Shown here piece after piece: positions 1 through 20,340 of a DNA stretch of 20,765 bases. The DNA comes from a virus: the IMG/VR virus record IMGVR_UViG_3300045988_172498; one strand, written 5' to 3'. Made by a program: the position numbers and the translations under genes. Position 1 is the stretch's first letter; each line of letters begins with the position of its first letter. The notes under the pieces were generated by a model. That model saw nothing but the letters and a program-made list of their open reading frames with translations. It made no database searches and was not told the origin of the DNA.

Positions 1-214
1 CATGTTTTCTATATTGTATATTGTTATATTAGTTATATTAATAATACATTTTTACCCTTTTTTTCCCCAATAACTATTATATTTTATAACTAATTGGACT
101 ATAGGTATATTATTTTTCATAATCTATACTAAAAAATTCATTATAATTATAATTATTCTGAACGCAGACAAAATTTTTGTCCAAAATCGAACATACGTTC
201 TATACATATTATAC

Positions 215-253
215 AATATAACTAATATAACAATATACAATATAGAAAACATG
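215..253 (-). repeat. Internal inverted copy of the terminal 39-mer (reverse complement of 1..39)
   Basis: 215..253 (AATATAACTAATATAACAATATACAATATAGAAAACATG) is the exact reverse complement of 1..39. The match breaks at position 40 versus 214. Confidence 0.95.
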
Positions 254-314
254 TTCTAAACATTTGTTCTATGTAGATAGATATACATATTATAAATAAA
301 CATATAAAAAAGTG

Positions 315-343
315 TTGACAAGATGGAGTAATCGTGCTATAAT
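315..343 (+). promoter_or_regulatory. Sigma-A-type promoter inside the left ITR, firing inward
   Basis: TTGACA at 315-320, a 17-bp spacer, and TGcTATAAT (extended -10) with TATAAT at 338-343. It is preceded by the TATAAAAAAGTG A-tract box shared with the other early promoters. Confidence 0.8.
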
Positions 344-387
344 ATAGATATAGTAAAGAGAGGTTGACACACAATAAATAAAAATAA

Positions 388-451
388 TAAAAAAGTGTTG
401 ATAAGCTAATTAAAAGATGATATAATATAGTTACAGTAAAGAAAAGAGGTA
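388..451 (+). repeat. Copy 1 of a 64-bp promoter/5'UTR/RBS cassette
   Basis: 388..451 and 829..892 are identical except for 2 mismatches: T/C in the -35 hexamer and G/A in the leader. Confidence 0.9.
398..426 (+). promoter_or_regulatory. Sigma-A-type promoter for ORF 459..794
   Basis: TTGATA at 398-403, a 17-bp spacer, and TGaTATAAT with TATAAT at 421-426. The RBS AAGAGG lies upstream of the ATG at 459. Confidence 0.8.
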
Positions 452-458
452 TTAAAAA

Positions 459-794
459 ATGACAGTATTAGAATTTATTAAAAAAGTAGAAAACGCAGAC
501 AATTGGAACGATATAGAAGTTGATGAATATAAAGAATATTTATCTATATATGGTATTGATTATGATAAATATTATTGTCCAGATTTTATGTGGGACGATT
601 TCTTAGCAGTTGTTAAAGTTGAATTGATTAAATATATAGACCGTAATTCTGAATATAATTACTTTTATAATGATGGTACTGGTGATATTGAATTTGGTAA
701 TGGTTATGAGAATGTTAGTATTTATGATGATAAAGATAATATAGTAAATGTAATTGAAAAACTAACAGAATTTAAAAATATAGTATGTGATTAG
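459..794 (+). CDS. Hypothetical early protein (111 aa), paralog of ORF 19929..20309
   Basis: ATG with RBS AAGAGGT about 8 nt upstream and its own consensus promoter. The N-terminal roughly 60 aa align by eye with the rightmost gene (LEFIKKVENADNWNDIEVDEYKEYL versus LDFINKVETVDKWEDIDEKEYNKNL). Confidence 0.75.
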   Translation: MTVLEFIKKVENADNWNDIEVDEYKEYLSIYGIDYDKYYCPDFMWDDFLAVVKVELIKYIDRNSEYNYFYNDGTGDIEFGNGYENVSIYDDKDNIVNVIEKLTEFKNIVCD

Positions 795-828
795 ATTTAA
801 TCGGCTTGTCAATACATAAATAAAAATA

Positions 829-892
829 TAAAAAAGTGTTGACAAGCTAATTAAAAGATGATATAATATAGTTACAATAAAGAAAAGAGGTA
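829..892 (+). repeat. Copy 2 of the 64-bp promoter/5'UTR/RBS cassette
   Basis: Near-identical to 388..451 (2 mismatches). Confidence 0.9.
839..867 (+). promoter_or_regulatory. Sigma-A-type promoter for ORF 899..1291
   Basis: TTGACA at 839-844, a 17-bp spacer, and TGaTATAAT with TATAAT at 862-867. Confidence 0.8.
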
Positions 893-898
893 CAGTGA

Positions 899-1291
899 AT
901 GATTAATAATTTAAATAATAGAATGGTAACAGTAGTTAAAAATAAAATAGCAGAATGTTATAGAATAATGGATATAAAATCTTTAAAAATGGGAAAAGAT
1001 AAGGAAGAAATTAGCAAAATAAGTCACGAATTAAGCAGAAAATTTTTTACTGATGTAATATTAAAATTTGAAAATGATATGTTTGATTACTTTAATACAA
1101 ATTATCAGACTAATGTTAGGTTTGGCTATGAAATTATTAGAAAAAATCATTTATTTAATGAAGTTGCTGATGATAGTATTGAATTAGATGATATTAAAGA
1201 CAAGGGATACAGATATTTTTTAGAATATTGTCCAACAATAAAATTATTTGAATTTTACTATATGATTGATGATTTTATACAAAAATTATAA
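899..1291 (+). CDS. Hypothetical early protein (130 aa)
   Basis: ORF with RBS AAGAGG at 885-890 and a consensus promoter upstream. No recognisable domain. Confidence 0.7.
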   Translation: MINNLNNRMVTVVKNKIAECYRIMDIKSLKMGKDKEEISKISHELSRKFFTDVILKFENDMFDYFNTNYQTNVRFGYEIIRKNHLFNEVADDSIELDDIKDKGYRYFLEYCPTIKLFEFYYMIDDFIQKL

Positions 1292-1309
1292 AAATTTGAG
1301 GTAAAATAA

Positions 1310-1498
1310 ATGTTAGATAAATATTATTATATTTCTAGTTTTCATAGCTTTTTACAAATTAGAAGATATTACAAAGTAAAAATTATAGAAATTGTAGATA
1401 GCGATTTTATGATGTTTAAAACTGATAAAAATATAAATCAAGATGATTTGTTAAGATTTAAAGTTAAAATATTTGATATGGATAGATTACTAAAATAG
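1310..1498 (+). CDS. Hypothetical early protein (62 aa)
   Basis: ATG preceded by GAGGT with about 8 nt spacing, tightly following the previous ORF. No recognisable domain. Confidence 0.55.
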   Translation: MLDKYYYISSFHSFLQIRRYYKVKIIEIVDSDFMMFKTDKNINQDDLLRFKVKIFDMDRLLK

Positions 1499-1695
1499 GT
1501 ATTAAAAGATGAATAATAAAAATGATGTTTGGTGTGGTATTAAAAGACCACGTCAATAAAAAATAAAAAAGGTAGTATTAAAAAGAGATAATTATAATAC
1601 TATAAATAGATTGTTGATAATTATAAACAATTTTATTAAGTTATTATTGTTAATAAATTTACTTGTTATTTCATCAAAATTTTTATAAAAAAGAC

Positions 1696-1724
1696 TTGAC
1701 AATGTAAAAACTTTGATGTATAAT
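1696..1724 (+). promoter_or_regulatory. Sigma-A-type promoter for the replication-gene operon
   Basis: TTGACA at 1696-1701, a 17-bp spacer and TATAAT at 1719-1724, preceded by TATAAAAAAGAC. It is followed by the strong RBS GGGGGGAGG. Confidence 0.8.
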
Positions 1725-1759
1725 ATAAGTATAAAAGATGAGGGGGGAGGTAAATAGTT

Positions 1760-2014
1760 TTGGGTAAAGAGTATAAAATAATTACCAAACAAGAAATAAA
1801 AGAGCTTGACTTAGACGATATCAAAAATGAAAATTCTGATAACTTAGTATCTTATGTATTTGATGATAATAAGTTGGTTTATGGTCTTGATAAATTTGGT
1901 AACATTTATTATCCATTCTCAAGTTGTTCAGGAATTAGCACAAGACAATATATTAATAAACTTGGGCAACAGGGTAGATTATTATGGATAAAAAGGACTA
2001 CACACGATGTATAG
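1760..2014 (+). CDS. Hypothetical early protein (84 aa), TTG start
   Basis: TTG start at 1760 lies about 8 nt after GGGGGGAGG. It is the first ORF after the promoter at 1696. Confidence 0.6.
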   Translation: MGKEYKIITKQEIKELDLDDIKNENSDNLVSYVFDDNKLVYGLDKFGNIYYPFSSCSGISTRQYINKLGQQGRLLWIKRTTHDV

Positions 2015-2301
2015 AGTTATTATTAGAATATATTGATAAATACTGTAATGAAAAGATAAATTTTTATAGCGTTAAAGTTAGAGCAATGGTAAACAATAAT
2101 AATTTACAACATTTTGAAGAACAATTTATAGTATATTTCCTAAAAAAATTCAATGGTGTATTATCTTTTAAGGTTAAATTATTTTTAAAAAATTGCAACT
2201 TTAATGACTATGAAGAATATTACAAATTATGGGATAGTATCAAATATTTGAGAACTGAAGAAAAGATAATAAAAAAAATAGCTAATTATAAAAATAATTA
2301 G
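1984..2301 (+). CDS. Hypothetical early protein (105 aa). Its position is analogous to the phi29 gene 6 DNA-binding protein, but no similarity is seen
   Basis: The ORF overlaps the previous one by 31 nt. It lies upstream of SSB/TP/polB, as gene 6 does in phi29. This is a positional argument only. Confidence 0.55.
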   Translation: MDKKDYTRCIELLLEYIDKYCNEKINFYSVKVRAMVNNNNLQHFEEQFIVYFLKKFNGVLSFKVKLFLKNCNFNDYEEYYKLWDSIKYLRTEEKIIKKIANYKNN

Positions 2302-2466
2302 CTATATGATGAACAAAAAGCTTTTTAAAATGCGATAGATTAAGTCGCAATATAAACTATACTACAAGTTAATGTATAATCTTGTACAGTTTATAGATTA
2401 AAAACATCAATTTGTTCTATAACTATTATAACATATTTAAATTTAAAAAACAATGGAGGATAAATA

Positions 2467-2814
2467 ATGAATAACGTACAATTAATAGGTAGATTTGTAA
2501 GGGATATTGAAATTAAAAGTGTTAACGAAAAAACAGTGGTTGCTAATTTTACATTGGCAGTAAATGGTTACGGTGATAAAACAGATTTCATCAATTGTGT
2601 CGCTTTTAACAAAACGGCTGAAAACTTAGCAAAATGGACTAAAAAAGGGGATATTATAGGAATTACTGGAAGTATCACAACAGGAAGTTACGAAAATAAA
2701 AACGGTGCTAAAGTTTTTACTACTGATGTTTTAGTAAATAATTTCACTTTTTTGCCAAATTCTAAAAAAGAAGAAAAGCAAGAAACACAAGACAAACCAT
2801 TTGGTAGATATTAA
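2467..2814 (+). CDS. ssb: Single-stranded DNA-binding protein, bacterial OB-fold SSB family (115 aa)
   Basis: RBS GGAGG upstream. The sequence MNNVQLIGRFVRDIEIKS...VANFTLAV...DFINCVAFNKTAENLAKWTKKGDIIGITGSI...Y matches the canonical SSB OB-fold pattern (N-terminal xxxLIGRL, DFI..V.W.K.AE, KG..I.V.G). It is short and lacks the usual acidic D-D-D-I/L-P-F tip. Confidence 0.85.
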   Translation: MNNVQLIGRFVRDIEIKSVNEKTVVANFTLAVNGYGDKTDFINCVAFNKTAENLAKWTKKGDIIGITGSITTGSYENKNGAKVFTTDVLVNNFTFLPNSKKEEKQETQDKPFGRY

Positions 2815-3563
2815 TGAACAAGAAAAAATCAAGAGGGGCAATGATTGCCTCTCTGACTACTCAAAGACGTAACCTTTTAAGGGGTGGAGCAAATAAAAAC
2901 GAAGTTAACAAACTTTATAGATTGTCTAATACTTCAAGTTTTTCCAATCTTAATGATAAAGAGTTGACAAGTTTATATAATGAGATAAAAAGCTATGGTA
3001 AATTATCAGTTATGCACGATGTACCTTATTCGTTAGATAGTAAAGATGGATTGATACGTTCTTCTACTTATGAAGAAAACGCTCAAAGATACAGAGATTA
3101 TAAAAAGAATGTTCGTGGTATAACATCAACTGTTGAAGAAAATGTATCTATAAATAAAGCTAAAAATTATATTATGATGAAATATAATTCAAATCGTGAT
3201 ATTCACTTAGAAGAATTAGAAACTGCGAAAAGATTTCAAGCTAAAATTTTTGAGAATTTAACATATGTAATTAAACACAATAAACGCACAAGTGATGAAG
3301 AGAAAAAACAATATAATAAACTAGTTAAAAAACTTAATTCTTTAAAACCTGAACAGTTTTTGAAATTTTATTACTCTACTAAAGAGAATAAAATTAATTA
3401 TGATGAACTTGTTAAAGACTCTCCAAAATCGCTAAATTTATTAGTAACACACTCAAATGAACAAGAGGAACTTTTAACAGTTGCTAATAATAGATTAGTG
3501 GATATTGATAAAGAATTATCAGATTTTACAAAAACAGATAGAATTTTTGGAGATAGGAAGTAA
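2814..3563 (+). CDS. Putative terminal protein (249 aa)
   Basis: The gene lies immediately upstream of the protein-primed polB and is translationally coupled to it (TAATG and ATG overlaps). It has a basic N-terminus and a size close to phi29 TP (266 aa). The C-terminal segment LNSLKPEQFLKFYYS...NYDELVKDS resembles my recalled phi29 TP region LKKIPPDDFYELF...FEEFDSEG around the priming serine. Confidence 0.6.
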   Translation: MNKKKSRGAMIASLTTQRRNLLRGGANKNEVNKLYRLSNTSSFSNLNDKELTSLYNEIKSYGKLSVMHDVPYSLDSKDGLIRSSTYEENAQRYRDYKKNVRGITSTVEENVSINKAKNYIMMKYNSNRDIHLEELETAKRFQAKIFENLTYVIKHNKRTSDEEKKQYNKLVKKLNSLKPEQFLKFYYSTKENKINYDELVKDSPKSLNLLVTHSNEQEELLTVANNRLVDIDKELSDFTKTDRIFGDRK

Positions 3564-5413
3564 TGAGTAAATTTTCAACAGTAACATCAAGAAAAAGTAA
3601 AAAAAGAAATAATTCAGAATTTTATTTATTAGCAGCAGATTTTGAAACTACAACAATTTTTGAAAAAAATCTTGATAGAGATATTAATAATAAAAAACTT
3701 GAAACTTGGTTAAATTGCTTTGTAGATATTAGAAAATGCTATGATATTGAAGAATACAGAATTTCAACAAGTACACAAGAATTTTTTGAACAAGTACATA
3801 ATCAGATTGAACAACAAGATAACAATGATGTAATTATATATTTTCACAATTTAAAGTTTGACGGAAGTTATATTTTAAATTATTTTAATTCAATTGGACA
3901 AGATTTTTCAACGTTTATTAACGATATGGGGCAATGGTATTCAATAGAATATACTTATAAAGATTATACTATAGTAATAAGAGATAGTTTGAAAATATTG
4001 AATTTTTCTATAAAACAAATCGGTAAAGATATGTTGAAAACAGTTGAAAAGGGTGTAACACCTTTGACGGAGGAAAAAATTCCTCTTGATGTTTGTTATC
4101 AAAAAGGATATGTTGATTATGTAATTCGTGATGTTGAGATTTTAGCAAAAGCACTTAACAAAATGATTTTTGAACAACATTTTGAAAAATTTACTGCAAG
4201 TAGTCAAGCACTTGCAACATATAAAGAGATAATCGGATTTGATACTTTTAGATGGTTATTTCCAGTTTTAAAAAATGATGAAATTATGCGTATGGGTTAT
4301 CGTGGTGGTTGGACTTATGCAAATCCAGTTTTTCAAAATAAAGAAATCAAGGGTGATATAAAGGTTTTTGATAAAAACTCTATGTATCCAGCTATTATGT
4401 TAAATTATCCTCTACCTTGTGGTTATCCTCGAAAATTAGAATATGATTACACTAAAGAAAAGGAGGATATTATTTTCAAAGAATTTGAAGGGTGTTGTTA
4501 TATTTATAATTTAAATATAGCTTTTGATATAAAAGATAATCACTTACCCTCTATTCAAATTAAAGTTGCAAATAAAGAATATTTTAAAGATAATCAATAT
4601 TTTAAGGATATGATTTTAGCTAATAAAGACAATTTATTTATGTTAGATAAAACTCAACGTGATTATTTAACTACAAGTGGCGGTTTTTATTTTAATATAT
4701 CATTAACAAATTATGATTTGGATTTGATAAAAAGACAATATGATTTCAGAATTATGCCAAATTCAAAGGTTATAAAATATGAATTTACAGCTAAAAAAGG
4801 TATGTTTGACACTTATATTAATCATTATAAAGAAAAAAAGATAGAGGGTAAAAAAATCGGTAACGCAGTAATGACACAAGATGCCAAATTAAAATTAAAT
4901 TCTTTGTACGGTAAATTTGGTACTAAAAAATTGATACAAGAAAAGGAAGTATTTTTTGATGATGATGTACTAAAATTTAAAACTGATTTGGAATTATCAG
5001 AAACAAACGGCGTTTACGTACCCTTGGCAATGTTTGTTACATCAATTGGAAGATGGGAGATTATAAACAATGCTCAAGATAATTATAATAATTTTCTTTA
5101 TAGTGATACTGATAGTTTACATTTATTAGATGAGGGACAAAAAATAAAACTAAATATTGATGAATACAAATTTGGTGATTGGAAAATTGAAGAGCAAGCA
5201 ACAAGGGGTAAATATTTAAGAGCAAAACTCTACATTGAAGAATTGATTGACGGAACTTTATCAGTTAGAGGTGCTGGAATGACGGAAGAAATAAAAAAAC
5301 AAGTCACTTTTGATAATTTTAAATTGGGTGCAAGTTTTGACGGGAAAAAAGCAAGTAAACAAATAAAAGGTGGAGTATTAATATATAATACAACATTTTC
5401 AATAAAAGAATGA
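3563..5413 (+). CDS. Protein-primed family-B DNA polymerase (616 aa), phi29 gp2-like
   Basis: All the expected motifs are visible: Exo I AADFETTT, Exo II FHNLKFDGSYIL, Exo III YVDYVIRDVEIL, motif A VFDKNSMYPA, motif B KLKLNSLYGKFG, motif C YSDTDSL, and KxY KYLRAKLY. Confidence 0.97.
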   Translation: MSKFSTVTSRKSKKRNNSEFYLLAADFETTTIFEKNLDRDINNKKLETWLNCFVDIRKCYDIEEYRISTSTQEFFEQVHNQIEQQDNNDVIIYFHNLKFDGSYILNYFNSIGQDFSTFINDMGQWYSIEYTYKDYTIVIRDSLKILNFSIKQIGKDMLKTVEKGVTPLTEEKIPLDVCYQKGYVDYVIRDVEILAKALNKMIFEQHFEKFTASSQALATYKEIIGFDTFRWLFPVLKNDEIMRMGYRGGWTYANPVFQNKEIKGDIKVFDKNSMYPAIMLNYPLPCGYPRKLEYDYTKEKEDIIFKEFEGCCYIYNLNIAFDIKDNHLPSIQIKVANKEYFKDNQYFKDMILANKDNLFMLDKTQRDYLTTSGGFYFNISLTNYDLDLIKRQYDFRIMPNSKVIKYEFTAKKGMFDTYINHYKEKKIEGKKIGNAVMTQDAKLKLNSLYGKFGTKKLIQEKEVFFDDDVLKFKTDLELSETNGVYVPLAMFVTSIGRWEIINNAQDNYNNFLYSDTDSLHLLDEGQKIKLNIDEYKFGDWKIEEQATRGKYLRAKLYIEELIDGTLSVRGAGMTEEIKKQVTFDNFKLGASFDGKKASKQIKGGVLIYNTTFSIKE

Positions 5414-5445
5414 GGGAACAAATATTCCCTCATATTTTTATTTCT
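5411..5445. terminator. Bidirectional rho-independent terminator between the convergent polB and endolysin genes
   Basis: An 8-bp stem TGAGGGAA (5411-5418) pairs with TTCCCTCA (5425-5432) around the 6-nt loop CAAATA. It is followed by TATTTTTATTTC on the + strand and by TTCTTTTATTG on the minus strand. Confidence 0.8.
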
Positions 5446-6397
5446 TTACTAAAAATTTATATCTATCTTTAATAAAATCATCTATGTTGTCGCTATCTTT
5501 AATATGGTATGTTGAATAGTTTGTCAAACCATAATTTTTGCCTTTAATTTTACCTAACTTTTCTTCACCTATAGCGATTATAGTATCTCCAGATTTTACC
5601 ATTCTTCCAAAATCAAGATTGAATTTACAAGGTACTAATAACGCTTTGTGAATTTCTGCTATTTTTAACGCTTTGTCTAAATTTTTATCAGTAAATGTGA
5701 CAACTGTATTTTTTAATTGGTCTTTAATTTCTTTTGTAATTTCCATTTTTTTAACCTCTTTTTTTATATCTTTTTTATATCCATTAAGTCCATTCATTTT
5801 TATTATATTTGGATAATCAATATAACAATAGTTTGTATCTACACCACCTTCTTCAGTTGAAGGAATACCGTACCATTTCATAGCATTTGTAAATTGGTGC
5901 ATAGGGTAAATTCCTTTGTAATTTACATATCTTGACCAGTGAGCAATCCAAATATCGTAATTTTTAATATCGTTATAATTAAAATTTCTATTTAAAAATG
6001 CTCTATTAGTATATATTCCTACATAACAACCTAGTTTTTCAATTTCTTTTAGATATTTTGTTGTATAAAATGTTATTTGTGATTTTGTTAGGTTTTTACC
6101 TTTTATACTAAAATCTTCAATATCAAAATAAATAGGATATTCAAATTGTTTATTTTTTATAGCTTGTTTTGTTAGTTGTATTTCAGTATCAATATTTAAA
6201 TAACTTGCAATATAGCAACCTACAGGTATTCCTACTCTTTTACATTCTTTATAATTATAATCAAATGTTTTATCAATGTATCCTCCGTTGTATCCACTTC
6301 CCAAACGTAAAATTGCAAATTGCACTCCAGATTTTTTGGCTTGTTCCCAATTTATTTTTCCATTATATTTTGATACATCAACTCCAATTTTTACCAT
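5438..6397 (-). CDS. Endolysin: N-terminal GH25 muramidase plus a C-terminal domain of about 100 aa, putatively cell-wall-binding (319 aa)
   Basis: The N-terminus MVKIGVDVSKYNGKINWEQAKKSGVQFAILRLG...GCYIASY is typical of glycoside hydrolase family 25 lysozymes. RBS GGAGG is upstream and the start overlaps the stop of the upstream membrane-protein gene (TAATG). This is the last gene of the late operon. Confidence 0.88.
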   Translation of the reverse strand: MVKIGVDVSKYNGKINWEQAKKSGVQFAILRLGSGYNGGYIDKTFDYNYKECKRVGIPVGCYIASYLNIDTEIQLTKQAIKNKQFEYPIYFDIEDFSIKGKNLTKSQITFYTTKYLKEIEKLGCYVGIYTNRAFLNRNFNYNDIKNYDIWIAHWSRYVNYKGIYPMHQFTNAMKWYGIPSTEEGGVDTNYCYIDYPNIIKMNGLNGYKKDIKKEVKKMEITKEIKDQLKNTVVTFTDKNLDKALKIAEIHKALLVPCKFNLDFGRMVKSGDTIIAIGEEKLGKIKGKNYGLTNYSTYHIKDSDNIDDFIKDRYKFLVKK

Positions 6398-6708
6398 TAT
6401 TTTACCTCCAATAATATATATTTTTCATAAATTTGTTGAACGTGTCCATTTCCATTTAAATTTTTATAACAAGTATATAATACATTTATAGCTTTTAATT
6501 CATCATTATAAGTGTATCCACGCTCTAGTGCTTTGTCAATTCTAGTGTCGACTAATTCGCCAATTATGATTTTGTTACATTGAGTTTGTAATTCTTGATT
6601 GTGAATTACTTTTTTAATTTTATCTATTAAATATTTAATAGCTTTGAATAAACTGACACCAAATATAGCGTAAACTATATTATTTACATTTATAATTTTA
6701 TCTATCAT
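6397..6708 (-). CDS. Small membrane protein coupled to the endolysin, putative holin (103 aa)
   Basis: A single N-terminal hydrophobic helix (IVYAIFGVSLFKAIKYLI) is followed by a charged soluble tail. The stop overlaps the endolysin start. The holin call is positional, and I cannot name a family. Confidence 0.45.
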   Translation of the reverse strand: MIDKIINVNNIVYAIFGVSLFKAIKYLIDKIKKVIHNQELQTQCNKIIIGELVDTRIDKALERGYTYNDELKAINVLYTCYKNLNGNGHVQQIYEKYILLEVK

Positions 6709-6722
6709 ACATTTTTACTTCC

Positions 6723-7808
6723 TCAAATAATATTGTTTAGTTGTTCCATTACATTATATTTTACCTCAAATGATGAATAAATGATATCATTTAAATAAAA
6801 TTTATCTCTTAACATTTTAGATATAAAGTGACTTCTTGATAAATATGTTGACTTATCACTAATCAAATTCTTATCAAATGTAATATTATTTAAATTCTTT
6901 TCATATCCACTATCAAAATAAATCATATCTCCAGTTTGAAATATACTGTAAATGTTGTTATTTCCACAATCTATTTGATACAATTTTAATTTACCATCTT
7001 TTATCTTTTTAACGTTTGAATAATTATTCACTGTGAACTCATTTTCAACGTTACTTTTAAAAATTTGACTGTCTTGCATAATCTTTAACAAGGGGTTATT
7101 GTCTAAACTTTCACGTGATAAGTCTATAGGTTTATTGGGTGCTATATGAATTACAACTCCATACTTTTTTAAATAATTATATTCTTTTGTATTCTTGTCG
7201 TTATAGTCAAATCGAAAATATGCAAAATATGGATTGTTTGTATTTGTGGCATTTGCAAGCATAAACACTTTTACTTTATCTCTTTTTCTAAAAACTGAAC
7301 TCATAAATTGAAATAATAAATCGACTTCGTTAGGTAAATAACGTAAATTTCTGTCCATTTCATCTATTAAAAATTCATCAAATAAAACTGTGTCTACTTC
7401 ATCATATTCACTTCCCTTTAATTTAATTGATGTTGATAAAGATTTCAAGTAAATTATAACTTTATCATTTAATATAATTCTTTTTGAGTTTATTTTTAAT
7501 TCATTTTCAATATTATTACCCATAAATCGTATTGAGGTTTCGGCTCTACTATTTTTGGTTTCTATTTCCTCAAAATTTTTAAATACTTGTCTTAGAATTT
7601 CAGTAGGAAAAAATTTTTCCTTATCAATTCCCAAGAGTTCACTATCTCTACGTCTTAAATATATACTTTTACTTCCTTTATAGATTGCTTGTTCTAACAT
7701 ATATTTTTTTACAGCAAATGTTTTTCCTACACCACGTGCTCCAATAACCATATTTAACATAGAATTATAACTTAATAATTTATCTAATTTATAATAATTA
7801 GTTATCAT
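6723..7808 (-). CDS. DNA encapsidation (packaging) ATPase, phi29 gp16-like (361 aa)
   Basis: Walker A VIGARGVGKT and Walker B VLFDEF are present. Long stretches match my recalled phi29 gp16: KLLSYNSMLNMVIGARGVGKTFAVKKY versus KMLSYDRILNFVIGARGIGKSYAMKVY, and YLPNEVDLLFQFMSSVFRKRDKVKVFMLANATNTNNPYF versus YIPNEVSALLNLMDTVFRNRERVRCICLSNAVSVVNPYF. Confidence 0.95.
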   Translation of the reverse strand: MITNYYKLDKLLSYNSMLNMVIGARGVGKTFAVKKYMLEQAIYKGSKSIYLRRRDSELLGIDKEKFFPTEILRQVFKNFEEIETKNSRAETSIRFMGNNIENELKINSKRIILNDKVIIYLKSLSTSIKLKGSEYDEVDTVLFDEFLIDEMDRNLRYLPNEVDLLFQFMSSVFRKRDKVKVFMLANATNTNNPYFAYFRFDYNDKNTKEYNYLKKYGVVIHIAPNKPIDLSRESLDNNPLLKIMQDSQIFKSNVENEFTVNNYSNVKKIKDGKLKLYQIDCGNNNIYSIFQTGDMIYFDSGYEKNLNNITFDKNLISDKSTYLSRSHFISKMLRDKFYLNDIIYSSFEVKYNVMEQLNNII

Positions 7809-9024
7809 AATTTTTCACCGTAAAATCTTTGAATTTCATATCTTGTTTATAATTCCATATTCTGACACCACTTTTAAATAATTCTTCTATAACTGATAGA
7901 CTTTGTTGTGGTATTTTGTTATTGTTTATAACTACTTTGTTCATCTTAATAAAATTGTATTCACTTCGTCCCTCTTGTAAAAATCTCCACAAATTTGATA
8001 CTTGTTTATTAAGTCTGACACCAAATAATCTAAAATAGTTATAAGCGTTATTTAATGCTATTTTATTACTTATTTTTATATCAAAATATATTCCGTCTAA
8101 TTTATAACCACCTTGAAAAGCAATATCATTTCCTAATTGTTGTATCGTGTTCGGTCTGTTGTACATATCCCCCAAGCTTGCGTTATATCCCCTCAAACCT
8201 TGTAGATAATTTAACTTTGATTTGTAATTTGATAAAGTAACACTTGCTAAATTCATATCGTTAACTTGACTTTGTTGCTCTTTTAACATTTGTCCTTTTT
8301 CATAACCAAAAATTCCACTCATTATATTAGCACCAAGTCCAAGTGTTCCACCTAAAATGTTGCCCATACCAATTCCTAATAATGAATTTGCAACTCCAAA
8401 ACCTGTGTTTACCAAATTTTGTGTGTTTTGGAAATCTATATTTGCTAATGAAAATTGATTATTCATTAACGTTCTTTGTGTATTCAAGTTGTTTTGTTTG
8501 TTAATCATATCAGCATTTTCATTGAACGTTTGTTTTTGTGCCTCTATTTGATTTTTATTAGCTTGCATAAAACTTGCAACACTATCAGTTATGATTGGCA
8601 TACTTCGTGGAGTTTTATCTATAAATCCAGTCTTTATTTCGTTATGTTCTCTTAAATATTTATTATATCTTTTATAATGTTTTCTTTTGTCTTCTTCGGG
8701 TTCTATAGTATTTTCTGATTGCTCAATAAAATAATTTTTTAATGTATAATGAACTTGGTTATTGTCGGATATACTTCCTCTAACAACTAGGTAATTATCT
8801 TCATTTTTTAAAAACTTAATATCATAGTTATAACTATTTCCATAGTTATCACGCATTAAGAGGTCTACAAATTCTGTAGACATTAATTGCGGCTCAAAAT
8901 TCTTTTCATCTATTAAATAATCTAAGTCTTTTATAACTTCTTTTTTTGCAATTTCTATCAAGTTACCTATATGGAACTCTTGTTCTCTGAACTGGTAACT
9001 TCCTTTATAGTGTATAATCTTCAT
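7798..9024 (-). CDS. Tail knob protein, C-terminal half (408 aa): phi29 gp9 C-terminal-like, with a Gly-rich hydrophobic segment
   Basis: RBS AAGAGGT is upstream. By eye it matches the recalled C-terminal half of phi29 gp9. VRGSISDNNQVHYTLKNY matches VRGSLGVSNKVAYSVQDY. The Gly/hydrophobic stretch GFGVANSLLGIGMGNILGGTLGLGANIMSGIFG matches GIMGMIGGGISAGASAAGGSALGMASS. NTIQQLGNDIAFQGGYKLDGIYFDIK...YNYFRLFGVRLNK...YNFIKMNKVVINNNKIPQQSLSVIEELFKSGVRIWN matches [27 protein letters not shown]...FFHKYGYKINR...[35 protein letters not shown]. Confidence 0.7.
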   Translation of the reverse strand: MKIIHYKGSYQFREQEFHIGNLIEIAKKEVIKDLDYLIDEKNFEPQLMSTEFVDLLMRDNYGNSYNYDIKFLKNEDNYLVVRGSISDNNQVHYTLKNYFIEQSENTIEPEEDKRKHYKRYNKYLREHNEIKTGFIDKTPRSMPIITDSVASFMQANKNQIEAQKQTFNENADMINKQNNLNTQRTLMNNQFSLANIDFQNTQNLVNTGFGVANSLLGIGMGNILGGTLGLGANIMSGIFGYEKGQMLKEQQSQVNDMNLASVTLSNYKSKLNYLQGLRGYNASLGDMYNRPNTIQQLGNDIAFQGGYKLDGIYFDIKISNKIALNNAYNYFRLFGVRLNKQVSNLWRFLQEGRSEYNFIKMNKVVINNNKIPQQSLSVIEELFKSGVRIWNYKQDMKFKDFTVKNYDN

Positions 9025-9050
9025 TTATATAACCTCTTTAAATATAAATA

Positions 9051-10952
9051 TTATGCTTTGTCTATTTGGTCTGGGAATTGTGGATTTCTTTTTGCTATTG
9101 CTTTATATACAGCGTTAATATTATCATAGTATCCTTTCCAATATCCTTTACCCCAAGCATAACCATCTAACGCTTGACAATATGATAACAAGGTTGTTTT
9201 TCCTTGCACTTTATAAACGTGAGTAATTAAGTATGTGAAATCATCGAAGAATACATCAATTGTATCATATTTAACATAGTAACCACCTTCATTACGAGGT
9301 CGTGGTGAACCTCTGTGCCTTTTGTTCGCATTTTGAGGATTTCCACCTCCGCCCGGATAGGTAATTCCTCCCCAATTATTTTCGACTTTTGAACGATTGG
9401 AAGAATTTCCCCAAAAACTTTCTTCGTAAAGTTGTGCAAGAGCAAACGAAGGTTTTATGTTACGTTTGTTACAATATGCAATTAATTTTTTCAAATTATC
9501 GACACTGATATTGCCATTTGGCATACTCAAACCACTTGATACGTTAACTTTTTGCCAATCTGTATTACCTGCTGATTTCGGTACACATTTAAAAAGATAA
9601 GGATAAGGGTCTGTTGTCGCATTTGTTCCACTGAACGTATGTTCATTTGTTGTATTAAGTTGGAAGTGCAAATGTGGTCCCGTACTTCTTCCAGTATTTC
9701 CACTTAAACCTATTTTTTGTCCTTGTTTTACTGTGTCACCAACATTGACAAGTCTTTTATTTAAGTGACCATAGACTGATAAATAATTATCTCCGTTTGT
9801 ATGTTTGATAACTATTAGATTACCAAATCCGCCTTGATTAAGTTCTGAACGTTTGACAACTCCGTCACGAACTGCGTATATCGGTAGATTTTCAACACCT
9901 TTTGTGGATAAGTCAAGCCCCCAATGTTTTGTGTGTCCTCCAACGCTGTAATTTGGGTCAAGGTAAGTCGCAGAAATTCGCCATTTACTGCTATCCGTTC
10001 CAAGTGGTAAAAATGGGCAAGAACCATCGGGATTTGTTGGGTTAATTCCGTCTGCTATTTCGCTATCACTATCAGAACCTACACCTACAATTTCAAAATA
10101 GTGGTTTGATAGGACGATAGGTTCTTTGTCTAAAGTTTCACCAAGTCCTAAAAATTTTGTAGTATAAATGTTAACACAATTATTAACTGTATTTGTATCT
10201 TCTGTAAATGAATTTGTTAATTCGTGAATTAAGTCCTCAAGATTGGTATTTTCAATTGTTACCCCTCCAACTTGAACAGAATATCCGTATCCCTCCTCTG
10301 TGATTGGATATAAAAAGTAAGAGTATGGTTTATATGTTCCTGAAAATGTTCCGTCAAATTTTCTTGAGCCTAATTTTGTTCCACTTTTCATAACAAAAAC
10401 AAGCCAAGTTACATTATTATTAAAATAAGTTGTTTTTTTATTTATTTTATATCCTGTATCAAATCCTTGATTGAGTGGTACAACATTGTTATAATATTGA
10501 TTATTTCTTTTAATGTGACCTTGTTCTATGATACCACTAATATTATCAAAATCAAGTGACAAGTGATAAGTTTGCCAATAATCTATTTCAAATATAATCT
10601 TTGTAGTATTATAATTAATATATTCTATATCTATTACAAACGCATAATACCAAAATCCCTCAACATTTTTAAATCTAATATAAGTAATAAATTTGTTGTC
10701 TTCTTTATTACCTTTAATCAATAAATAATTAGTATTTTTTATATATGCTTGTGTAGTTTCCTTTATCTTTGGTGTTAATATATGCGTGAAATAATATTCT
10801 TGTTCTAAATCATTATTAAATTTAATTACGTCTAAATTATCAATTGTAAACGGTGTTTTTTCGTAAATTTGTAACTCCGTATCTTTGATTTTATTCTCCA
10901 AATTTTCCTTGTCCAACAAAAACACCACCTTTTCTAATTTGACAACTTCCAC
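9051..10952 (-). CDS. Tail knob N-terminal half fused to an M23 peptidase and a glucosaminidase (GH73-like) domain (633 aa); tail-associated peptidoglycan hydrolase
   Basis: - Residues about 1-295 resemble the phi29 gp9 N-terminus: EGFWYYAFVIDIEYINYNTTKIIFEIDYWQTY versus [31 protein letters not shown], and VNIYTTKFLGL versus VNMYVTDYIGL.
- Residues about 312-455 carry the M23 motifs HWGLD (HxxxD) and GPHLHF (HxH).
- Residues about 480-633 carry FALAQLYEESFWGNSS...NNWGGI, like the glucosaminidase motif AQ..ESgWG.S...NN.FGI.
- The annotated start is GTG at 10952 with no obvious RBS and a 62-nt overlap with the upstream ORF. An in-frame TTG at about 10901, preceded by AAGGAAA, is an alternative start. 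Confidence 0.8.
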   Translation of the reverse strand: MEVVKLEKVVFLLDKENLENKIKDTELQIYEKTPFTIDNLDVIKFNNDLEQEYYFTHILTPKIKETTQAYIKNTNYLLIKGNKEDNKFITYIRFKNVEGFWYYAFVIDIEYINYNTTKIIFEIDYWQTYHLSLDFDNISGIIEQGHIKRNNQYYNNVVPLNQGFDTGYKINKKTTYFNNNVTWLVFVMKSGTKLGSRKFDGTFSGTYKPYSYFLYPITEEGYGYSVQVGGVTIENTNLEDLIHELTNSFTEDTNTVNNCVNIYTTKFLGLGETLDKEPIVLSNHYFEIVGVGSDSDSEIADGINPTNPDGSCPFLPLGTDSSKWRISATYLDPNYSVGGHTKHWGLDLSTKGVENLPIYAVRDGVVKRSELNQGGFGNLIVIKHTNGDNYLSVYGHLNKRLVNVGDTVKQGQKIGLSGNTGRSTGPHLHFQLNTTNEHTFSGTNATTDPYPYLFKCVPKSAGNTDWQKVNVSSGLSMPNGNISVDNLKKLIAYCNKRNIKPSFALAQLYEESFWGNSSNRSKVENNWGGITYPGGGGNPQNANKRHRGSPRPRNEGGYYVKYDTIDVFFDDFTYLITHVYKVQGKTTLLSYCQALDGYAWGKGYWKGYYDNINAVYKAIAKRNPQFPDQIDKA

Positions 10953-11676
10953 TATTTGAGCTATTTGTGTCTGTAAATTTCATTAAATCTATATCTTGAA
11001 ATACTCCATTTTTTCTAATCTTTAAAAATCCACTACTAGTATTTAAAGTTTTAAAAATTTGACCTTTTCTAATTGCGAATGGTCTGAATTTTTGAGGTTT
11101 TGGTGGTGGAGGTGGTAGGATAATTTGTTCTATTTTTAGATAAATAGATTTTGGATATTTTGGGTTATCTCCAGATAAAATAAATCTTACCCACTTTACG
11201 TTTTGTCCTACTGTAAATGTTTTTGAAAATGAAGAACTTTTACAACCATTTCTCCAAGTCAAACCGCCATTTCCGTCTTCTTTGTATAAAAAAGGTAAAT
11301 ACCAATTGTGCGTTAATACTTTTTCATTTTGTATTACTTTATATTTACTGTCATCAGATTTTGCATTTGGGTCATCACTTGTTGCAATTTCCAAAAACCA
11401 ATCATATTTACCGCTGTAGTTTACATAAGTTTTGTCATAAATCGGTTTCGCAGTTTTAAAATTTAGTACAATTGGTGCCAAACTACATTCAAGTGTTACA
11501 ACTCTATCGTTATTTTTAAAACGAATACCTTTTGCAAATCCACTTTTATTTGCTCTTTCAAGATTGACGTTGAAGGGATAAGGTTTAACCTCTCCCCCAA
11601 CTAACGCAACGTCTTGTGCCGTTCCAGTTTTAGCAAATCCTCCGTAAAATTGATAAAATTTTGTCCAATCTCCCAT
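10891..11676 (-). CDS. Hypothetical tail/receptor-binding-module protein (261 aa)
   Basis: The gene is tightly packed in the tail module. The composition is beta-rich, with a PPPPPKP linker followed by three copies of an IRKG/NG(V/I)F motif. No family recognised. Confidence 0.6.
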   Translation of the reverse strand: MGDWTKFYQFYGGFAKTGTAQDVALVGGEVKPYPFNVNLERANKSGFAKGIRFKNNDRVVTLECSLAPIVLNFKTAKPIYDKTYVNYSGKYDWFLEIATSDDPNAKSDDSKYKVIQNEKVLTHNWYLPFLYKEDGNGGLTWRNGCKSSSFSKTFTVGQNVKWVRFILSGDNPKYPKSIYLKIEQIILPPPPPKPQKFRPFAIRKGQIFKTLNTSSGFLKIRKNGVFQDIDLMKFTDTNSSNSGSCQIRKGGVFVGQGKFGE

Positions 11677-11678
11677 TT

Positions 11679-12401
11679 TTAAATACCACCTATTAAATCA
11701 TTTTCTTTATTTGCTTTACTTGTTCTGATGTAATGTTCTTCATCTTGTCCAAATAAATTTATATTACCAACGGCAAAACCTAAACCATCTTTCAAGTAAT
11801 TTCCGTCAATTACTCCCCTATCTTTCAAATCATTATATAGATTTTTAATAAAGTTTAGTAATTCATTATCAATTTTTCCATCATTAATACTACCTTGTAA
11901 ATTCTTTATTTGTTGTTCAAGATTTGTTATTTTATCTCCAAGGTTTTTTAATTCTTGTTCAATAGTGTTAAGTCTTTCGACTAAATTACCAAGTGAATTT
12001 TTAAGTTTTTCAATTTCTTTTTTATTATTTTCAATATCACCTTGCATTTTATCAATAATTGGTTTCAATTCTTGTTCATACCAATCACGTATAATTTTCA
12101 AAATGATATTTTTAAATTCATCACTTTTTACATATTGCCTTATCAAGTCGGGTATTAATTCTTCTAATAAGTTTGTTAAATTATTTTTAAATTCTTCAAA
12201 TTCTAAAGACTGATTGATAAAATCATCTAATAGGTCTTTGAATGCTCTTTGTAACCAAGCTAATAATTCATAAATACTTTGTGAATTATCTAATGATGTT
12301 GGGAGGTGTGGTATCATCCCCCAACGTCTAATCCAATATTGATTATATCTATCTTTGTATTCTCTGAAATAATCATCAGTTATATTATCTATATATTTCA
12401 T
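11679..12401 (-). CDS. Coiled-coil tail/fibre-associated protein (240 aa)
   Basis: The central heptad-like region (KKEIEKLKNSLGNLVERLNTIEQELKNLGDKITNLEQQIKNL) suggests a coiled coil. The gene lies between the fibre and the other tail genes. The assignment is positional. Confidence 0.5.
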   Translation of the reverse strand: MKYIDNITDDYFREYKDRYNQYWIRRWGMIPHLPTSLDNSQSIYELLAWLQRAFKDLLDDFINQSLEFEEFKNNLTNLLEELIPDLIRQYVKSDEFKNIILKIIRDWYEQELKPIIDKMQGDIENNKKEIEKLKNSLGNLVERLNTIEQELKNLGDKITNLEQQIKNLQGSINDGKIDNELLNFIKNLYNDLKDRGVIDGNYLKDGLGFAVGNINLFGQDEEHYIRTSKANKENDLIGGI

Positions 12402-12413
12402 AATTACGCCTTT

Positions 12414-14486: not shown

Positions 14487-14742
14487 TTTCTATCACCTCT
14501 ATTTTGATTTCGTCTTTGTGTCTATCGATAAAATTATATAAAAAATAATCTCTGATTACATTATATAAAATATCATCTTTAAATTCTAAAATACTTTTTC
14601 CGTCTACTCTATCAGTATTTAACCTATAATAAAAAAGGTATGTAATTATATTGAGTGTTTCACTCAAACTGTTACATACCTTGTAATTATGTCCACTCAC
14701 TATAATAGTATTCTTTTTATCGTTTAAAGTTATATTAATCAT
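14470..14742 (-). CDS. Small protein (90 aa), possible Prp-like (DUF464) cysteine protease fold
   Basis: MINITLNDKKNTIIVSGHNYKVCNSLSETL resembles the Prp pattern (I.V.....G.I....VSGHA...G.DIVCAAVSAL) with His and Cys in order, though the His-Cys spacing is shorter. The C-terminus EIKIEVIE resembles the Prp ending NIRLNY. Weak, by-eye only. Confidence 0.35.
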   Translation of the reverse strand: MINITLNDKKNTIIVSGHNYKVCNSLSETLNIITYLFYYRLNTDRVDGKSILEFKDDILYNVIRDYFLYNFIDRHKDEIKIEVIEIEEEL

Positions 14743-15278: not shown

Positions 15279-15288
15279 ATATCCACCT

Positions 15289-16930: not shown

Positions 16931-16932
16931 AA

Positions 16933-18177: not shown

Positions 18178-18496
18178 TTATACCTAAGTCCTCCACTTCT
18201 GTATCTTCTGTAATTACTTCGACTTCTCCGTCTGTGTTTACAATTTCTTCAGATTGATTTTCTGTAACGTCTGGAGCTTGTGTTGTACTTTCTTCGACTG
18301 TATCAACAACTGTTTTTGGTTCTCTTTCGATTACATCAATTCTTCCATCATAATCTGTAAATCTTTGGTTAACATCATTTCTGAAATCATTAATTGAATT
18401 TGACAAACCGTTAACTGTTTCTTTTAATTGGTTAAATTCATCTTGTGATTTCTCTTTTCTAATTAGGTCGTGTTCTCCCCAATTAATTTTCATCAT
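18170..18496 (-). CDS. Acidic hypothetical protein (108 aa) immediately upstream of the capsid gene
   Basis: The ORF overlaps both neighbours by a few nt. The C-terminal half is strongly acidic (TEDTEVEDL). No family recognised. It could be a head-assembly or decoration factor. Confidence 0.6.
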   Translation of the reverse strand: MMKINWGEHDLIRKEKSQDEFNQLKETVNGLSNSINDFRNDVNQRFTDYDGRIDVIEREPKTVVDTVEESTTQAPDVTENQSEEIVNTDGEVEVITEDTEVEDLGINE

Positions 18497-18725: not shown

Positions 18726-18733
18726 AAAAACCT

Positions 18734-19188: not shown

Positions 19189-19193
19189 TATTT

Positions 19194-20309: not shown

Positions 20310-20340
20310 TTTAATACCTCTTTTCCTTTTCTTTAATTAA

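What the first reader, a model, noticed from the sequence alone, without database searches (positions are those of the whole stretch)
1..253. Nested inverted repeat inside the ITR: the terminal 39-mer occurs four times in the genome
- Within each 382-bp ITR, the outermost 39 bp (1..39) recur as a perfect inverted copy at 215..253, mirrored at 20513..20551 and 20727..20765. They enclose a 175-bp core.
- A displaced single strand could therefore fold two ways. It could form the classic end-to-end panhandle, or a local terminal hairpin with a 39-bp stem and 175-nt loop.
- The junction at 247..254 is the palindrome AACATGTT. The sequence just inside it (CATGTTCTAAACATTTGTTCTAT) weakly resembles the genome end (CATGTTTTCTATATTG), as if an ancestral terminus had been internalised by fold-back synthesis.
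- The 5' end CATG has no terminal reiteration of the kind used for sliding-back initiation in phi29, Cp-1 or PRD1. Either a few terminal bases are missing or initiation differs here.
- An ITR of 382 bp is very long compared with the 6-bp ITR of phi29.
Basis: seen in the sequence. Interest (0 to 1): 0.62.

Follow-up and report, generated by a model that had tools for sequence, protein, structure and literature searches.

The report
Fold-back artefact on phage genome ends
The 39-base repeat nested in the ends of this small gut phage genome is really in the sequence, but its outer 34 bases are most likely a fold-back chimera, because a near-identical assembly and two relatives end in GGG(G)ATA, as expected for this kind of phage.

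Summary
Bases 1-39 are the exact reverse complement of 215-253, inside a perfect 382-bp ITR, and chance does not produce this (shuffles reach 14 nt at most).

The window is a complete Cp-1-like, protein-primed podophage from a human gut metagenome.

The evidence points to the outer copy not being native:
- **Near-identical record:** a separate record of the same phage (2 internal SNPs in 20.7 kb) reads GGGGATATTAATAATAC at both ends. The window has 34 other bases in place of the GGGG.
- **Relatives:** two related contigs put GGG at the same alignment column. In one of them the G run is followed outward by unrelated 50%-GC sequence.
- **Copy direction:** the inner copy (215-253) is native and is conserved, with substitutions, in relatives. 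The outer copy matches only the window's own inner copy, 39/39.
- **Junction:** the join lies on a 5-nt microhomology beside six more native pairs, which is the mark of a snap-back chimera.

With the native end, the ITR is 352 bp, close to Cp-7 (347) and Cp-1 (236).

The AACATGTT palindrome lies at 248-255, not 247-254. It belongs to one of three GAAC-N4-GTTC boxes.

Read-level proof was not possible. Interest is low.

The parts
1..34 (+). Non-native terminal extension at the left end. It is the exact reverse complement of 220-253 and takes the place of the native GGGG.
   Evidence: Window and G000 were compared base by base. G000 starts GGGGATATT at window position 31 and differs at 31, 33 and 34. 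It has no counterpart of bases 1-30.
35..39 (+). Microhomology at the chimeric junction: ATATT, the reverse complement of 215-219.
   Evidence: Read from the sequence. The fold also pairs 41-46 with 207-212, so the native sequence carries an imperfect 5+6 bp inverted repeat right beside the native terminus.
35..382 (+). Native left ITR, lacking its first four bases (GGGG). In G000 the perfect ITR is 352 bp.
40..214 (.). The 175-bp core. It is ordinary outer ITR sequence with C/T-rich blocks (ACCC-T7-CCCCAAT, window 54-71) that recall the Cp-1 and Cp-7 termini.
   Evidence: Conserved in G000, L030, G003, L013 and L014 without any flanking 39-nt inverted repeat.
215..253 (+). Native internal copy of the 39-mer. 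It is an A/T-rich stretch of AATATAAC-like short repeats lying between two GAAC-N4-GTTC boxes.
   Evidence: Present in G000 (100%), and at 34-35 of 39 positions in L030, L013 and G003.
189..200 (.). GAAC-N4-GTTC box 1 (GAACATACGTTC), invariant in five of the six aligned relatives.
245..256 (.). GAAC-N4-GTTC box 2 (GAAAACATGTTC; GAACACACGTTC in relatives). It contains the palindrome AACATGTT at 248-255. The repeat boundary 253|254 falls inside it.
258..269 (.). GAAC-N4-GTTC box 3 (AAACATTTGTTC; GAACATTTGTTC in L030 and L013).
315..343 (+). First early promoter inside the ITR (TTGACA, 17-nt spacer, TATAAT, with an extended TG).
2814..3563 (+). Candidate terminal protein, assigned by position only. 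It lies between the SSB gene and the polymerase gene.
   Evidence: Searches give the gene order (SSB, 249 aa, DNA_pol_B_2). There is no sequence match to known terminal proteins.
3563..5413 (+). Protein-primed family B DNA polymerase.
   Evidence: PF03175, E = 9.6e-52. It is 42% identical to the Cp-7 and Cp-1 polymerases.
20384..20731 (-). Native right ITR, lacking its terminal CCCC.
20513..20551 (-). Native internal copy of the 39-mer in the right ITR.
20732..20765 (-). Non-native terminal extension at the right end, the mirror of 1-34.
   Evidence: G000 differs at 20732, 20733 and 20735 and stops at 20735.

Best explanation
The window is the complete linear genome of a Cp-1-like (phi29-type) podophage that replicates by protein priming. 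It was assembled from a human gut metagenome.

Its real ends read 5'-GGGGATATTAATAATAC..., and its real ITR is about 352 bp. In this assembly the four terminal G are replaced by 34 bases. Those bases are the exact reverse complement of 220-253, a native stretch further inside the same ITR.

The join lies on the 5-nt microhomology ATATT (35-39, the reverse complement of 215-219). Six further native pairs (41-46 with 207-212) lie beside it.

This pattern marks a snap-back or template-switch chimera. The proposed steps are:
1. The 3' end of the strand complementary to the terminus (...TATTATTAATATCCCC-3') pairs with the imperfect native inverted repeat.
2. It loses the unpaired CCCC to a 3'-5' exonuclease.
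3. It is extended along its own strand or a sister strand.

The natural genome end is one fixed DNA end present in every genome copy. Such a chimera therefore forms at one reproducible position and can extend a contig tip.

An assembler holds both ITR copies as a single graph edge. One chimeric tip is therefore printed at both genome ends, which gives the four copies.

**Shown:**
- The extension is absent from a near-identical record and from the relatives whose termini are visible.
- The internal copy is native and conserved.
- The junction lies on microhomology.

**Inferred:**
- The snap-back steps themselves.
- Whether the chimera arose during end repair of the sonicated library or inside the assembler.
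- What set the arm length at 39. It could be the reach of the longest chimeric read, or a k-mer size of 39 to 40.
For: 1. **Near-identical record.** G000 is 20,705 nt and differs from the window at only two internal positions (6393 and 11415). Both its ends read GGGGATATT..., and its ITR is perfect for 352 nt. The window has 34 other bases there.
2. **Relatives.** Contig 167770 (G004/L014) ends GGGATAGTGGTAATAC at the same alignment column. Contig 168566 (L013) has GGGATATTGG at that column, preceded by 70 nt of unrelated sequence at 50% GC, against 25.7% for the rest of the contig. The physical end is therefore seen three times at the G run. L013 also shows that tips of these contigs do pick up chimeric extensions.
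3. **Inverted repeats in the native ITR.** The longest perfect inverted repeat in the G000 ITR is 8 nt, and in Cp-1 and Cp-7 it is 8 and 13 nt. The window has 39.
4. **Which copy is recent.** The terminal arm matches the window's own internal copy 39/39. It matches the internal copies of relatives at only 34-35/39. The duplication is therefore extremely recent or artefactual.
5. **Junction.** The join falls on microhomology beside a native imperfect inverted repeat.
6. **Terminal reiteration.** All characterised protein-primed systems need one for sliding-back: phi29, GA-1, Nf and Cp-1 use 3'-TTT and PRD1 uses 3'-CCCC (PMC4974454). GGGG provides it and CATG does not. PRD1 starts GGGGATACG.
7. 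**Spacing from the end.** With the GGGG end, the C-rich blocks ACCC-T7-CCCCAAT sit 24-41 nt from the terminus. In Cp-1 and Cp-7 the similar ACCCC-T5...CCCCAAT sits at 18-43 nt. In the window they lie 30 nt further in.
8. **Library method.** Window 891-20510 is 100% identical to a contig of run ERR866569, study PRJEB9150. That study made its libraries by Covaris shearing and ligation-based preparation (NEBNext or the automated PrepX kit), with no whole-genome amplification (PMC4442136). Sonication libraries are documented to give chimeric reads at natural imperfect inverted repeats (PMC10908179).
9. **Assembler effects in this genome.** Contig k127_26077 equals window 256..20510, which is the unique part plus exactly k = 127 nt of ITR at each end. 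This shows how the assembler sets repeat-arm lengths here.
Against: - Neither the frequency of junction reads nor their pair orientation is known.
- All three contigs that show the G-run terminus come from one IMG/VR dataset, 3300045988. That dataset appears to be a compilation: one of its contigs has the same length as an ENA SPAdes contig. Even so, the three are not guaranteed to be fully independent.
- The extension ends exactly at a CATG inside a palindrome. This could point to a defined physical end rather than an arbitrary read end.
- I could not establish which assembler made the window, so the account of the 39-nt arm length is unproven.
Confidence: 0.75

Rival explanations
1. The junction reads are real molecules made in the infected cell. 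During strand-displacement replication, the displaced strand snaps back on the imperfect native repeat. The phage polymerase's exonuclease removes CCCC, and the 3' end is extended. This gives fold-back by-products that were abundant enough to be assembled. They are not the canonical packaged genome.
For: The sequence evidence is the same as for the best explanation: microhomology at the junction, a native imperfect inverted repeat next to the terminus, and loss of the four terminal bases. Protein-primed polymerases have strong 3'-5' exonuclease and strand-displacement activity (established knowledge; review PMC4974454). Displaced single strands with free 3' ends exist in this replication mode.
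Against: An in-cell extension should run on far beyond 253. Nothing in the assembly distinguishes this reading from a library artefact. The near-identical G000 assembly shows no trace of the extension. The metagenome was total community DNA at modest depth, about 3 million reads per sample.
Confidence: 0.13
2. The window shows the true physical ends. This strain has a 382-bp ITR whose outermost 39 bp are repeated in inverted form inside the ITR. A displaced strand can therefore form either a panhandle or a local hairpin with a 39-bp stem, and initiation occurs on a 3'-GTAC end without reiteration.
For: The repeat is perfect, far beyond chance, and symmetrical at both ends. It would form a very stable hairpin, at -45.5 kcal/mol. 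The end coincides with a CATG inside a palindromic box, which could be a specific site.
Against: - A genome only 2 SNPs away ends in GGGG instead, and relatives end in GGG.
- There is no terminal reiteration, which every characterised protein-primed system has.
- Symmetry at the two ends is produced automatically by ITR collapse in assembly.
- The arms show no divergence, and the terminal copy is not conserved in any relative.
- The origin-proximal C-rich blocks would be displaced by 30 nt compared with Cp-1 and Cp-7.
Confidence: 0.08
3. The 175-bp core with its 39-bp inverted arms is a small mobile or invertible element, such as a MITE-like insertion or a DNA-inversion switch, sitting at the genome tip.
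For: Inverted arms flanking a short non-coding core give the general shape of such elements.
Against: - The core is ordinary ITR sequence, present in G000 and in relatives without the outer arm.
- One arm is the very end of the contig.
- No target-site duplication is visible, and no recombinase or transposase appears in the gene list.
- No other copy was found in the viral collection.
Confidence: 0.01

Closest known systems
Inverted terminal repeats of pneumococcal phages Cp-1 and Cp-7 (Cepunavirus, Salasmaviridae)
   Same: - They are the nearest cultured relatives: capsid protein 52% identical and DNA polymerase 42% identical.
- Their genomes are linear, 19-20 kb, and replicate by protein priming.
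- Their ITRs are long and perfect: 236 and 347 bp, against 352 bp native here.
- Early promoters lie inside or just past the ITR.
- C/T-rich blocks lie within about 45 nt of the terminus.
   Different: - The terminus is GGGG here and AAAG in Cp-1 and Cp-7.
- There is no detectable DNA similarity.
- GC content is 25% here.
- Three GAAC-N4-GTTC boxes lie in this ITR. I saw none when reading the Cp-1 and Cp-7 ends.
- Neither Cp-1 nor Cp-7 has a nested inverted repeat longer than 13 nt.
PRD1 terminus (5'-GGGGATACG..., 3'-CCCC template, stepwise sliding-back)
   Same: The native end seen in G000 begins GGGGATA, as PRD1 does. A run of four identical terminal bases is what PRD1 uses to initiate at the fourth template base and slide back (PMC4974454).
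   Different: PRD1 is a tectivirus with an unrelated virion. Initiation on the G run in this phage is an inference and has not been tested. Relatives show GGG rather than GGGG.
Inverted-repeat chimeric reads from sonication and end-repair libraries (PDSM model, PMC10908179), and repeat arms whose length is set by the assembler
   Same: - The chimera joins a strand to its own inverted complement at a natural imperfect inverted repeat.
- The source study used Covaris shearing and ligation-based library kits.
- k-mer-sized repeat arms at contig ends are visible in this very genome, in contig k127_26077.
   Different: Here the chimera sits on a natural genome end rather than a random shear end, so it became part of the consensus. 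Read-level confirmation is missing.
Terminal hairpin telomeres (parvovirus, poxvirus, N15-type)
   Same: There is only a superficial likeness: a terminal sequence able to fold back on itself.
   Different: - The loop is 175 nt rather than a near-perfect terminal palindrome.
- The gene list shows no nickase, Rep protein or telomere resolvase.
- The genome encodes a protein-primed polymerase.
- The structure is absent from the near-identical record.

Membership tests
Protein-primed linear phage genome with ITR (phi29/Cp-1 type) | Family B DNA polymerase of the protein-primed type | tested here: met
   PF03175, E = 9.6e-52; phrog_1907, E = 5.5e-125. It is 42% identical to the Cp-7 polymerase.
Protein-primed linear phage genome with ITR (phi29/Cp-1 type) | Identical inverted repeats at the two physical ends | tested here: met
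   The perfect ITR is 382 nt in the window and 352 nt in G000.
Protein-primed linear phage genome with ITR (phi29/Cp-1 type) | Reiterated terminal nucleotides that allow sliding-back or jumping-back | tested here: inconclusive
   Not met by the window's CATGTTTTC end. Met by the GGGG end of the near-identical G000 and the GGG of two relatives. The requirement is described in PMC4974454.
Protein-primed linear phage genome with ITR (phi29/Cp-1 type) | [quoted passage not shown] | not testable with these tools
   There is only a positional candidate gene, 2814-3563, between the SSB and polymerase genes. It has no sequence match to known terminal proteins.
Protein-primed linear phage genome with ITR (phi29/Cp-1 type) | phi29-type virion and packaging module (capsid, connector, gp16 ATPase, tail knob) | tested here: met
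   Phi29_MCP, E = 7.6e-75; Podovirus_Gp16, E = 7.8e-34; phi29_gp9_C. Phage_connector appears.
Fold-back (snap-back) chimeric extension of a contig tip | Absent from an independent assembly of the same genome | tested here: met
   G000 differs at 2 internal positions and carries GGGG instead of the 34 nt at both ends.
Fold-back (snap-back) chimeric extension of a contig tip | The extension is an exact inverted copy of nearby native sequence, joined at a microhomology | tested here: met
   1-34 is the reverse complement of 220-253 and matches 39/39 when the shared ATATT is included. Relatives' internal copies match only 34-35/39. Native pairs 41-46 with 207-212 flank the junction.
Fold-back (snap-back) chimeric extension of a contig tip | Not conserved in relatives whose termini are visible | tested here: met
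   L014/G004 and L013 have no such repeat.
Fold-back (snap-back) chimeric extension of a contig tip | Junction supported only by a minority of reads with abnormal pair orientation, while most terminal reads stop at the native end | not testable with these tools
Terminal hairpin telomere (parvovirus, poxvirus or N15 type) | Terminal palindrome that folds into a tight hairpin, together with a nickase or telomere resolvase gene | tested here: not met
   The loop is 175 nt. No such gene appears among the Pfam and PHROG hits or the precomputed families. Small ORFs without any hit cannot be excluded.

The most novel reading that the evidence does not exclude
The window's ends could be the physical ends of a natural variant. 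In that reading, snap-back synthesis on an 11-bp imperfect repeat replaced the GGGG terminus with a 34-nt inverted copy of internal ITR sequence. The change then spread to both ends through ITR homogenisation. The variant would still replicate, which would mean protein-primed initiation on a non-reiterated 3'-GTAC end, or a hairpin-assisted mode. This would be a live example of how long ITRs grow and how origins are remodelled in phi29-type phages.
Probability: 0.08. Interest if true: 0.6.

Novelty: not a real feature. Interest (0 to 1): 0.18.

Why it matters
The main value is quality control.
- **Chimeric tips:** ends of ITR phage genomes taken from metagenome catalogues can carry chimeric fold-back tips. 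ITR collapse in the assembler prints such a tip at both ends, so it looks like real biology.
- **Contig ends near the ITR boundary:** these can simply reflect the assembler's k.

Two by-products may be of use to people who work on protein-primed replication:
- **Likely true origin:** this gut clade of Cp-1-like phages probably starts with a PRD1-like G run, GGG(G)ATA. This can be tested with recombinant terminal protein and polymerase.
- **ITR boxes:** each ITR carries three conserved GAAC-N4-GTTC boxes of the shape bound by LexA in Firmicutes. This hints that the host SOS state, or a phage regulator, acts at the early promoters or origins.

Tried and rejected
**Searches that gave nothing**
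- **Phage database:** there was no DNA match for the whole genome, and only chance hits for the ITR.
- **Terminal 23-mer in viral contigs:** the exact search found nothing.
- **Conserved core and ITR patterns:** these found only the already known relatives.
- **Degenerate terminus pattern:** it gave chance hits plus the two known contigs.
- **Genome contigs:** no relative was found.
- **Metagenome contigs:** five relatives were found, but none reaches a left terminus. Their other ends could not be fetched.
- **The look-up of encoding contigs:** small ORFs in the ITR are not on record, and neither is the first right-end gene. Logan contigs break at the repeated promoter cassette about 30 nt upstream of the first gene.
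- **Right-end protein scan:** this recovered only G003, whose end stops inside the core.
- **L013 prefix:** the 70-nt GC-rich prefix has no match in plasmids or in the phage itself.
- **Rfam:** there is no pRNA or other family in window 1-900 or in the Cp-1 and Cp-7 ends.
- **Candidate terminal protein:** it has no match in phages.

**Readings rejected**
- **True ends near 254 and 20512.** The contig that ends at 256 is the unique part plus k = 127 nt of ITR.
- **A MITE or an invertible segment.** The core is native ITR sequence and lacks the outer arm in G000 and relatives.
- **GGGG as a poly-G sequencing artefact.** This is unlikely. The run is 3-4 nt long at the same column in three different strains, and in L013 it is followed outward by ordinary mixed sequence.
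- **An ancestral terminus internalised.** The similarity comes from palindromic boxes.

**Left open**
Why the arm is exactly 39 nt is unresolved. It may reflect the reach of the longest chimeric read. It may also be a k = 39 (MEGAHIT default list) or k = 40 graph node. I could not establish which assembler made the window.

Full report
**1. What the window is**

The 20,765-nt window has 25% GC. It encodes these recognisable genes:
- a protein-primed family B DNA polymerase (3563-5413; PF03175, E = 9.6e-52)
- a phi29-type major capsid protein
- a gp16 packaging ATPase
- a split tail knob carrying M23 and glucosaminidase domains
- a GH25 endolysin
- an SSB, a connector and a MazG protein

The nearest cultured phages are the pneumococcal phages Cp-1, Cp-7 and SOCP. 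Their capsid is 52% identical and their polymerase 42% identical. There is no DNA-level match in the phage collection.

Positions 891-20510 are 100% identical to a MEGAHIT contig of run ERR866569. That run belongs to study PRJEB9150, human gut samples from a Bangladeshi cholera cohort. The window is therefore a complete or near-complete Cp-1-like podophage genome from a human gut metagenome.

**2. The observation**

- Bases 1-39 are the exact reverse complement of 215-253, with 175 nt between them. The structure is mirrored at the right end.
- The ITR is perfect for 382 nt.
- In 200 shuffles of the ITR, the longest perfect inverted repeat averaged 9.7 nt and never exceeded 14.
- The 253 nt fold at -45.5 kcal/mol, z = -11.3.
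- One coordinate is off by one. AACATGTT lies at 248-255, not 247-254.

**3. The decisive comparison**

The genome search mapped the window onto a held virus record, G000, of 20,705 nt. It covers window 31..20735. A base-by-base comparison shows only two internal differences, at 6393 and 11415. The ends, however, are different.
- G000 begins GGGGATATTAATAATAC and ends with the complement of that. Its ITR is perfect for 352 nt.
- The window reads CATGTTTTCTATATTGTATATTGTTATATTAGTT|ATATTAATAATAC.

So 34 nt in the window stand where G000 has GGGG. Those 34 nt are exactly the reverse complement of 220-253. The only native complementarity at the junction is ATATT (35-39 with 215-219). After a small bulge come ATAATA and TATTAT (41-46 with 207-212). 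Without the extension, the longest perfect inverted repeat in the ITR is 8 nt, and the fold is unremarkable at z = -1.55.

**4. Relatives**

Seven related contigs were found in IMG/VR and five in public metagenomes, with polymerase identity of 84-98%. Most break at or near the ITR boundary or at the repeated promoter cassette, as de Bruijn assemblies do. Two reach the terminus.
- Contig 167770 (L014/G004) ends GGGATAGTGGTAATAC.
- Contig 168566 (L013) has GGGATATTGGTAATAC at the same alignment column. Seventy nt of 50%-GC sequence precede it, and this has no similarity to the phage.

The phage sequence therefore stops at a G run in three different strains. L013 also shows that these contig tips can acquire foreign extensions.

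The internal copy (215-253) is native. It is present in G000, L030, L013 and G003, with 4-5 substitutions. The window's terminal arm matches only the window's own internal copy, 39/39. None of the relatives has a nested inverted repeat.

**5. How it most likely arose**

This section is inference. The arrangement is an exact inverted copy of nearby sequence, joined at a microhomology next to an imperfect native inverted repeat, with loss of the four unpaired terminal bases. That is what snap-back or template-switch synthesis produces.

The 3' end ...TATTATTAATATCCCC-3' pairs with ATATT-GT-ATAATA on the same or a sister strand. The CCCC flap is removed by a 3'-5' exonuclease, and the end is extended.

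The source study sheared DNA with a Covaris instrument and used ligation-based library kits, NEBNext for one batch and the automated PrepX kit for the other (PMC4442136). Sonication libraries are documented to give chimeric reads at natural imperfect inverted repeats (PMC10908179).

A natural genome end is the same DNA end in every genome copy. The chimera therefore forms at one position and can extend a tip, especially at low depth. The related SPAdes contigs have coverage of 4.7-9.5. The ITR is one edge in the assembly graph, so the tip appears at both ends.

The same chemistry could also happen in the infected cell on displaced strands. That is rival 1, and I cannot separate the two without reads.

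**6. Arm length**

This is also inference. In a de Bruijn graph, a loop attached to a stick is written out with k bases of the stick at both ends. This very genome shows the effect. Contig k127_26077 is window 256..20510, which is the unique region plus exactly 127 nt of ITR on each side (382 - 256 + 1 = 127).

Two things follow.
- An arm of 39 could be a k = 39 or k = 40 node (39 is in MEGAHIT's default k list). With a larger k, it could be the reach of the longest chimeric read.

I could not find out which assembler produced the window.

**7. Replication**

All characterised protein-primed systems initiate on a reiterated 3' end and slide or jump back. GA-1, Nf and Cp-1 use 3'-TTT and PRD1 uses 3'-CCCC (PMC4974454).

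CATGTTTTC has no reiteration and GGGG does. PRD1 itself begins GGGGATACG, and G000 begins GGGGATATT.

With the GGGG end, the blocks ACCC-T7-CCCCAAT lie 24-41 nt from the terminus. Cp-1 and Cp-7 have ACCCC-T5...CCCCAAT at 18-43 nt. This is weak support for G000 carrying the true origin geometry.

The native ITR of 352 bp is in the range of Cp-7 (347, perfect) and Cp-1 (236, perfect). Its length is normal for this clade.

**8. The palindrome and the 'weak resemblance'**

The ITR holds three GAAC-N4-GTTC motifs, at 189-200, 245-256 and 258-269. With up to one mismatch the genome has 13 such sites, against 3.9 ± 1.9 in shuffles (0 of 100 shuffles reach 13). Six of the 13 lie in the two ITRs.
- Box 1 is invariant in five of the six aligned sequences.
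- Box 2 is a perfect GAAC-N4-GTTC in L030, G003 and L013, and box 3 in L030 and L013.

AACATGTT is the centre of box 2. The similarity between CATGTTCTAAAC... and the window's terminal CATGTTTTCTA... arises because box 2 is an imperfect palindrome (TAGAA...TTCTA).

From established knowledge, the motif has the shape of the LexA (Cheo) box of Firmicutes. Whether LexA or a phage protein binds it was not tested.

**9. Verdict**

The repeat exists in this record, but its outer arm is most probably not part of the phage.

| Reading | Probability |
|---|---|
| Chimeric tip from library preparation or assembly | 0.75 |
| Real fold-back by-products made in the cell | 0.13 |
| True remodelled terminus | 0.08 |

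Read mapping would settle the question.

I found the same kind of k-mer signature here independently.

Noticed in passing
window 189-200, 245-256, 258-269 (mirrored at 20566-20577, 20510-20521, 20497-20508): Each ITR carries three GAAC-N4-GTTC palindromes, the shape of a Firmicute LexA box, 45-125 nt upstream of the first early promoter. Box 1 is invariant in relatives. Box 2 is a perfect match in L030, G003 and L013, and box 3 in L030 and L013. Across the genome there are 13 sites with up to one mismatch, against 3.9 expected.
   Followed up: partly
G000 (record positions 1-4 and 20702-20705, aligned to window 31-34 and 20732-20735); L014 1-3; L013 71-73: The native terminus of this phage group appears to be a G run, GGG(G)ATA, like PRD1's GGGGATACG and unlike the AAA ends of phi29, GA-1 and Cp-1. 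This suggests sliding-back on 3'-CCC(C) in a Cp-1-like podophage.
   Followed up: partly
L013 1-70 (IMGVR_UViG_3300045988_168566): Seventy nt of unrelated sequence at 50% GC are fused exactly at the phage's GGG terminus. This is probably a ligation chimera at the natural DNA end. It has no match in plasmids or in the phage.
   Followed up: partly
L036/L047 (ena:ERZ917938 k127_26077), equal to window 256..20510: This MEGAHIT contig of the same phage ends 3 nt from the inner repeat boundary purely by arithmetic. It is the unique part plus k = 127 nt of the 382-nt ITR. It could easily be mistaken for evidence of a terminus near 254.
   Followed up: yes
window 54-71 (G000 24-41); Cp-1 and Cp-7 positions 18-43: C/T-rich blocks (ACCC-T7-CCCCAAT here, ACCCC-T5...CCCCAAT in Cp-1 and Cp-7) lie at a similar distance from the native terminus in a genome of 25% GC. 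They may be a shared origin element.
   Followed up: no
window 155-183, minus strand: A weak outward-facing promoter-like site (TGGACA, 17-nt spacer, CAGAAT) sits at nearly the same place as the annotated leftward promoter in the Cp-1 and Cp-7 ITRs (-35 at 172-177, -10 at 150-155). It could drive a small terminal RNA. Rfam finds no pRNA here or in Cp-1 and Cp-7.
   Followed up: partly
G004 (IMGVR_UViG_3300045988_167770), left end 1-100 compared with right end: The two ITR copies of this relative are not identical in their outer part. The left copy starts about 200 nt in and carries many substitutions towards A. It may be a strain mixture or a low-quality tip.
   Followed up: no
window 6393 and 11415: These are the only two internal differences between the window and G000 (A/G in the endolysin gene, T/C in the 261-aa tail-region gene). 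The ERR866569 contig carries the window's alleles.
   Followed up: yes
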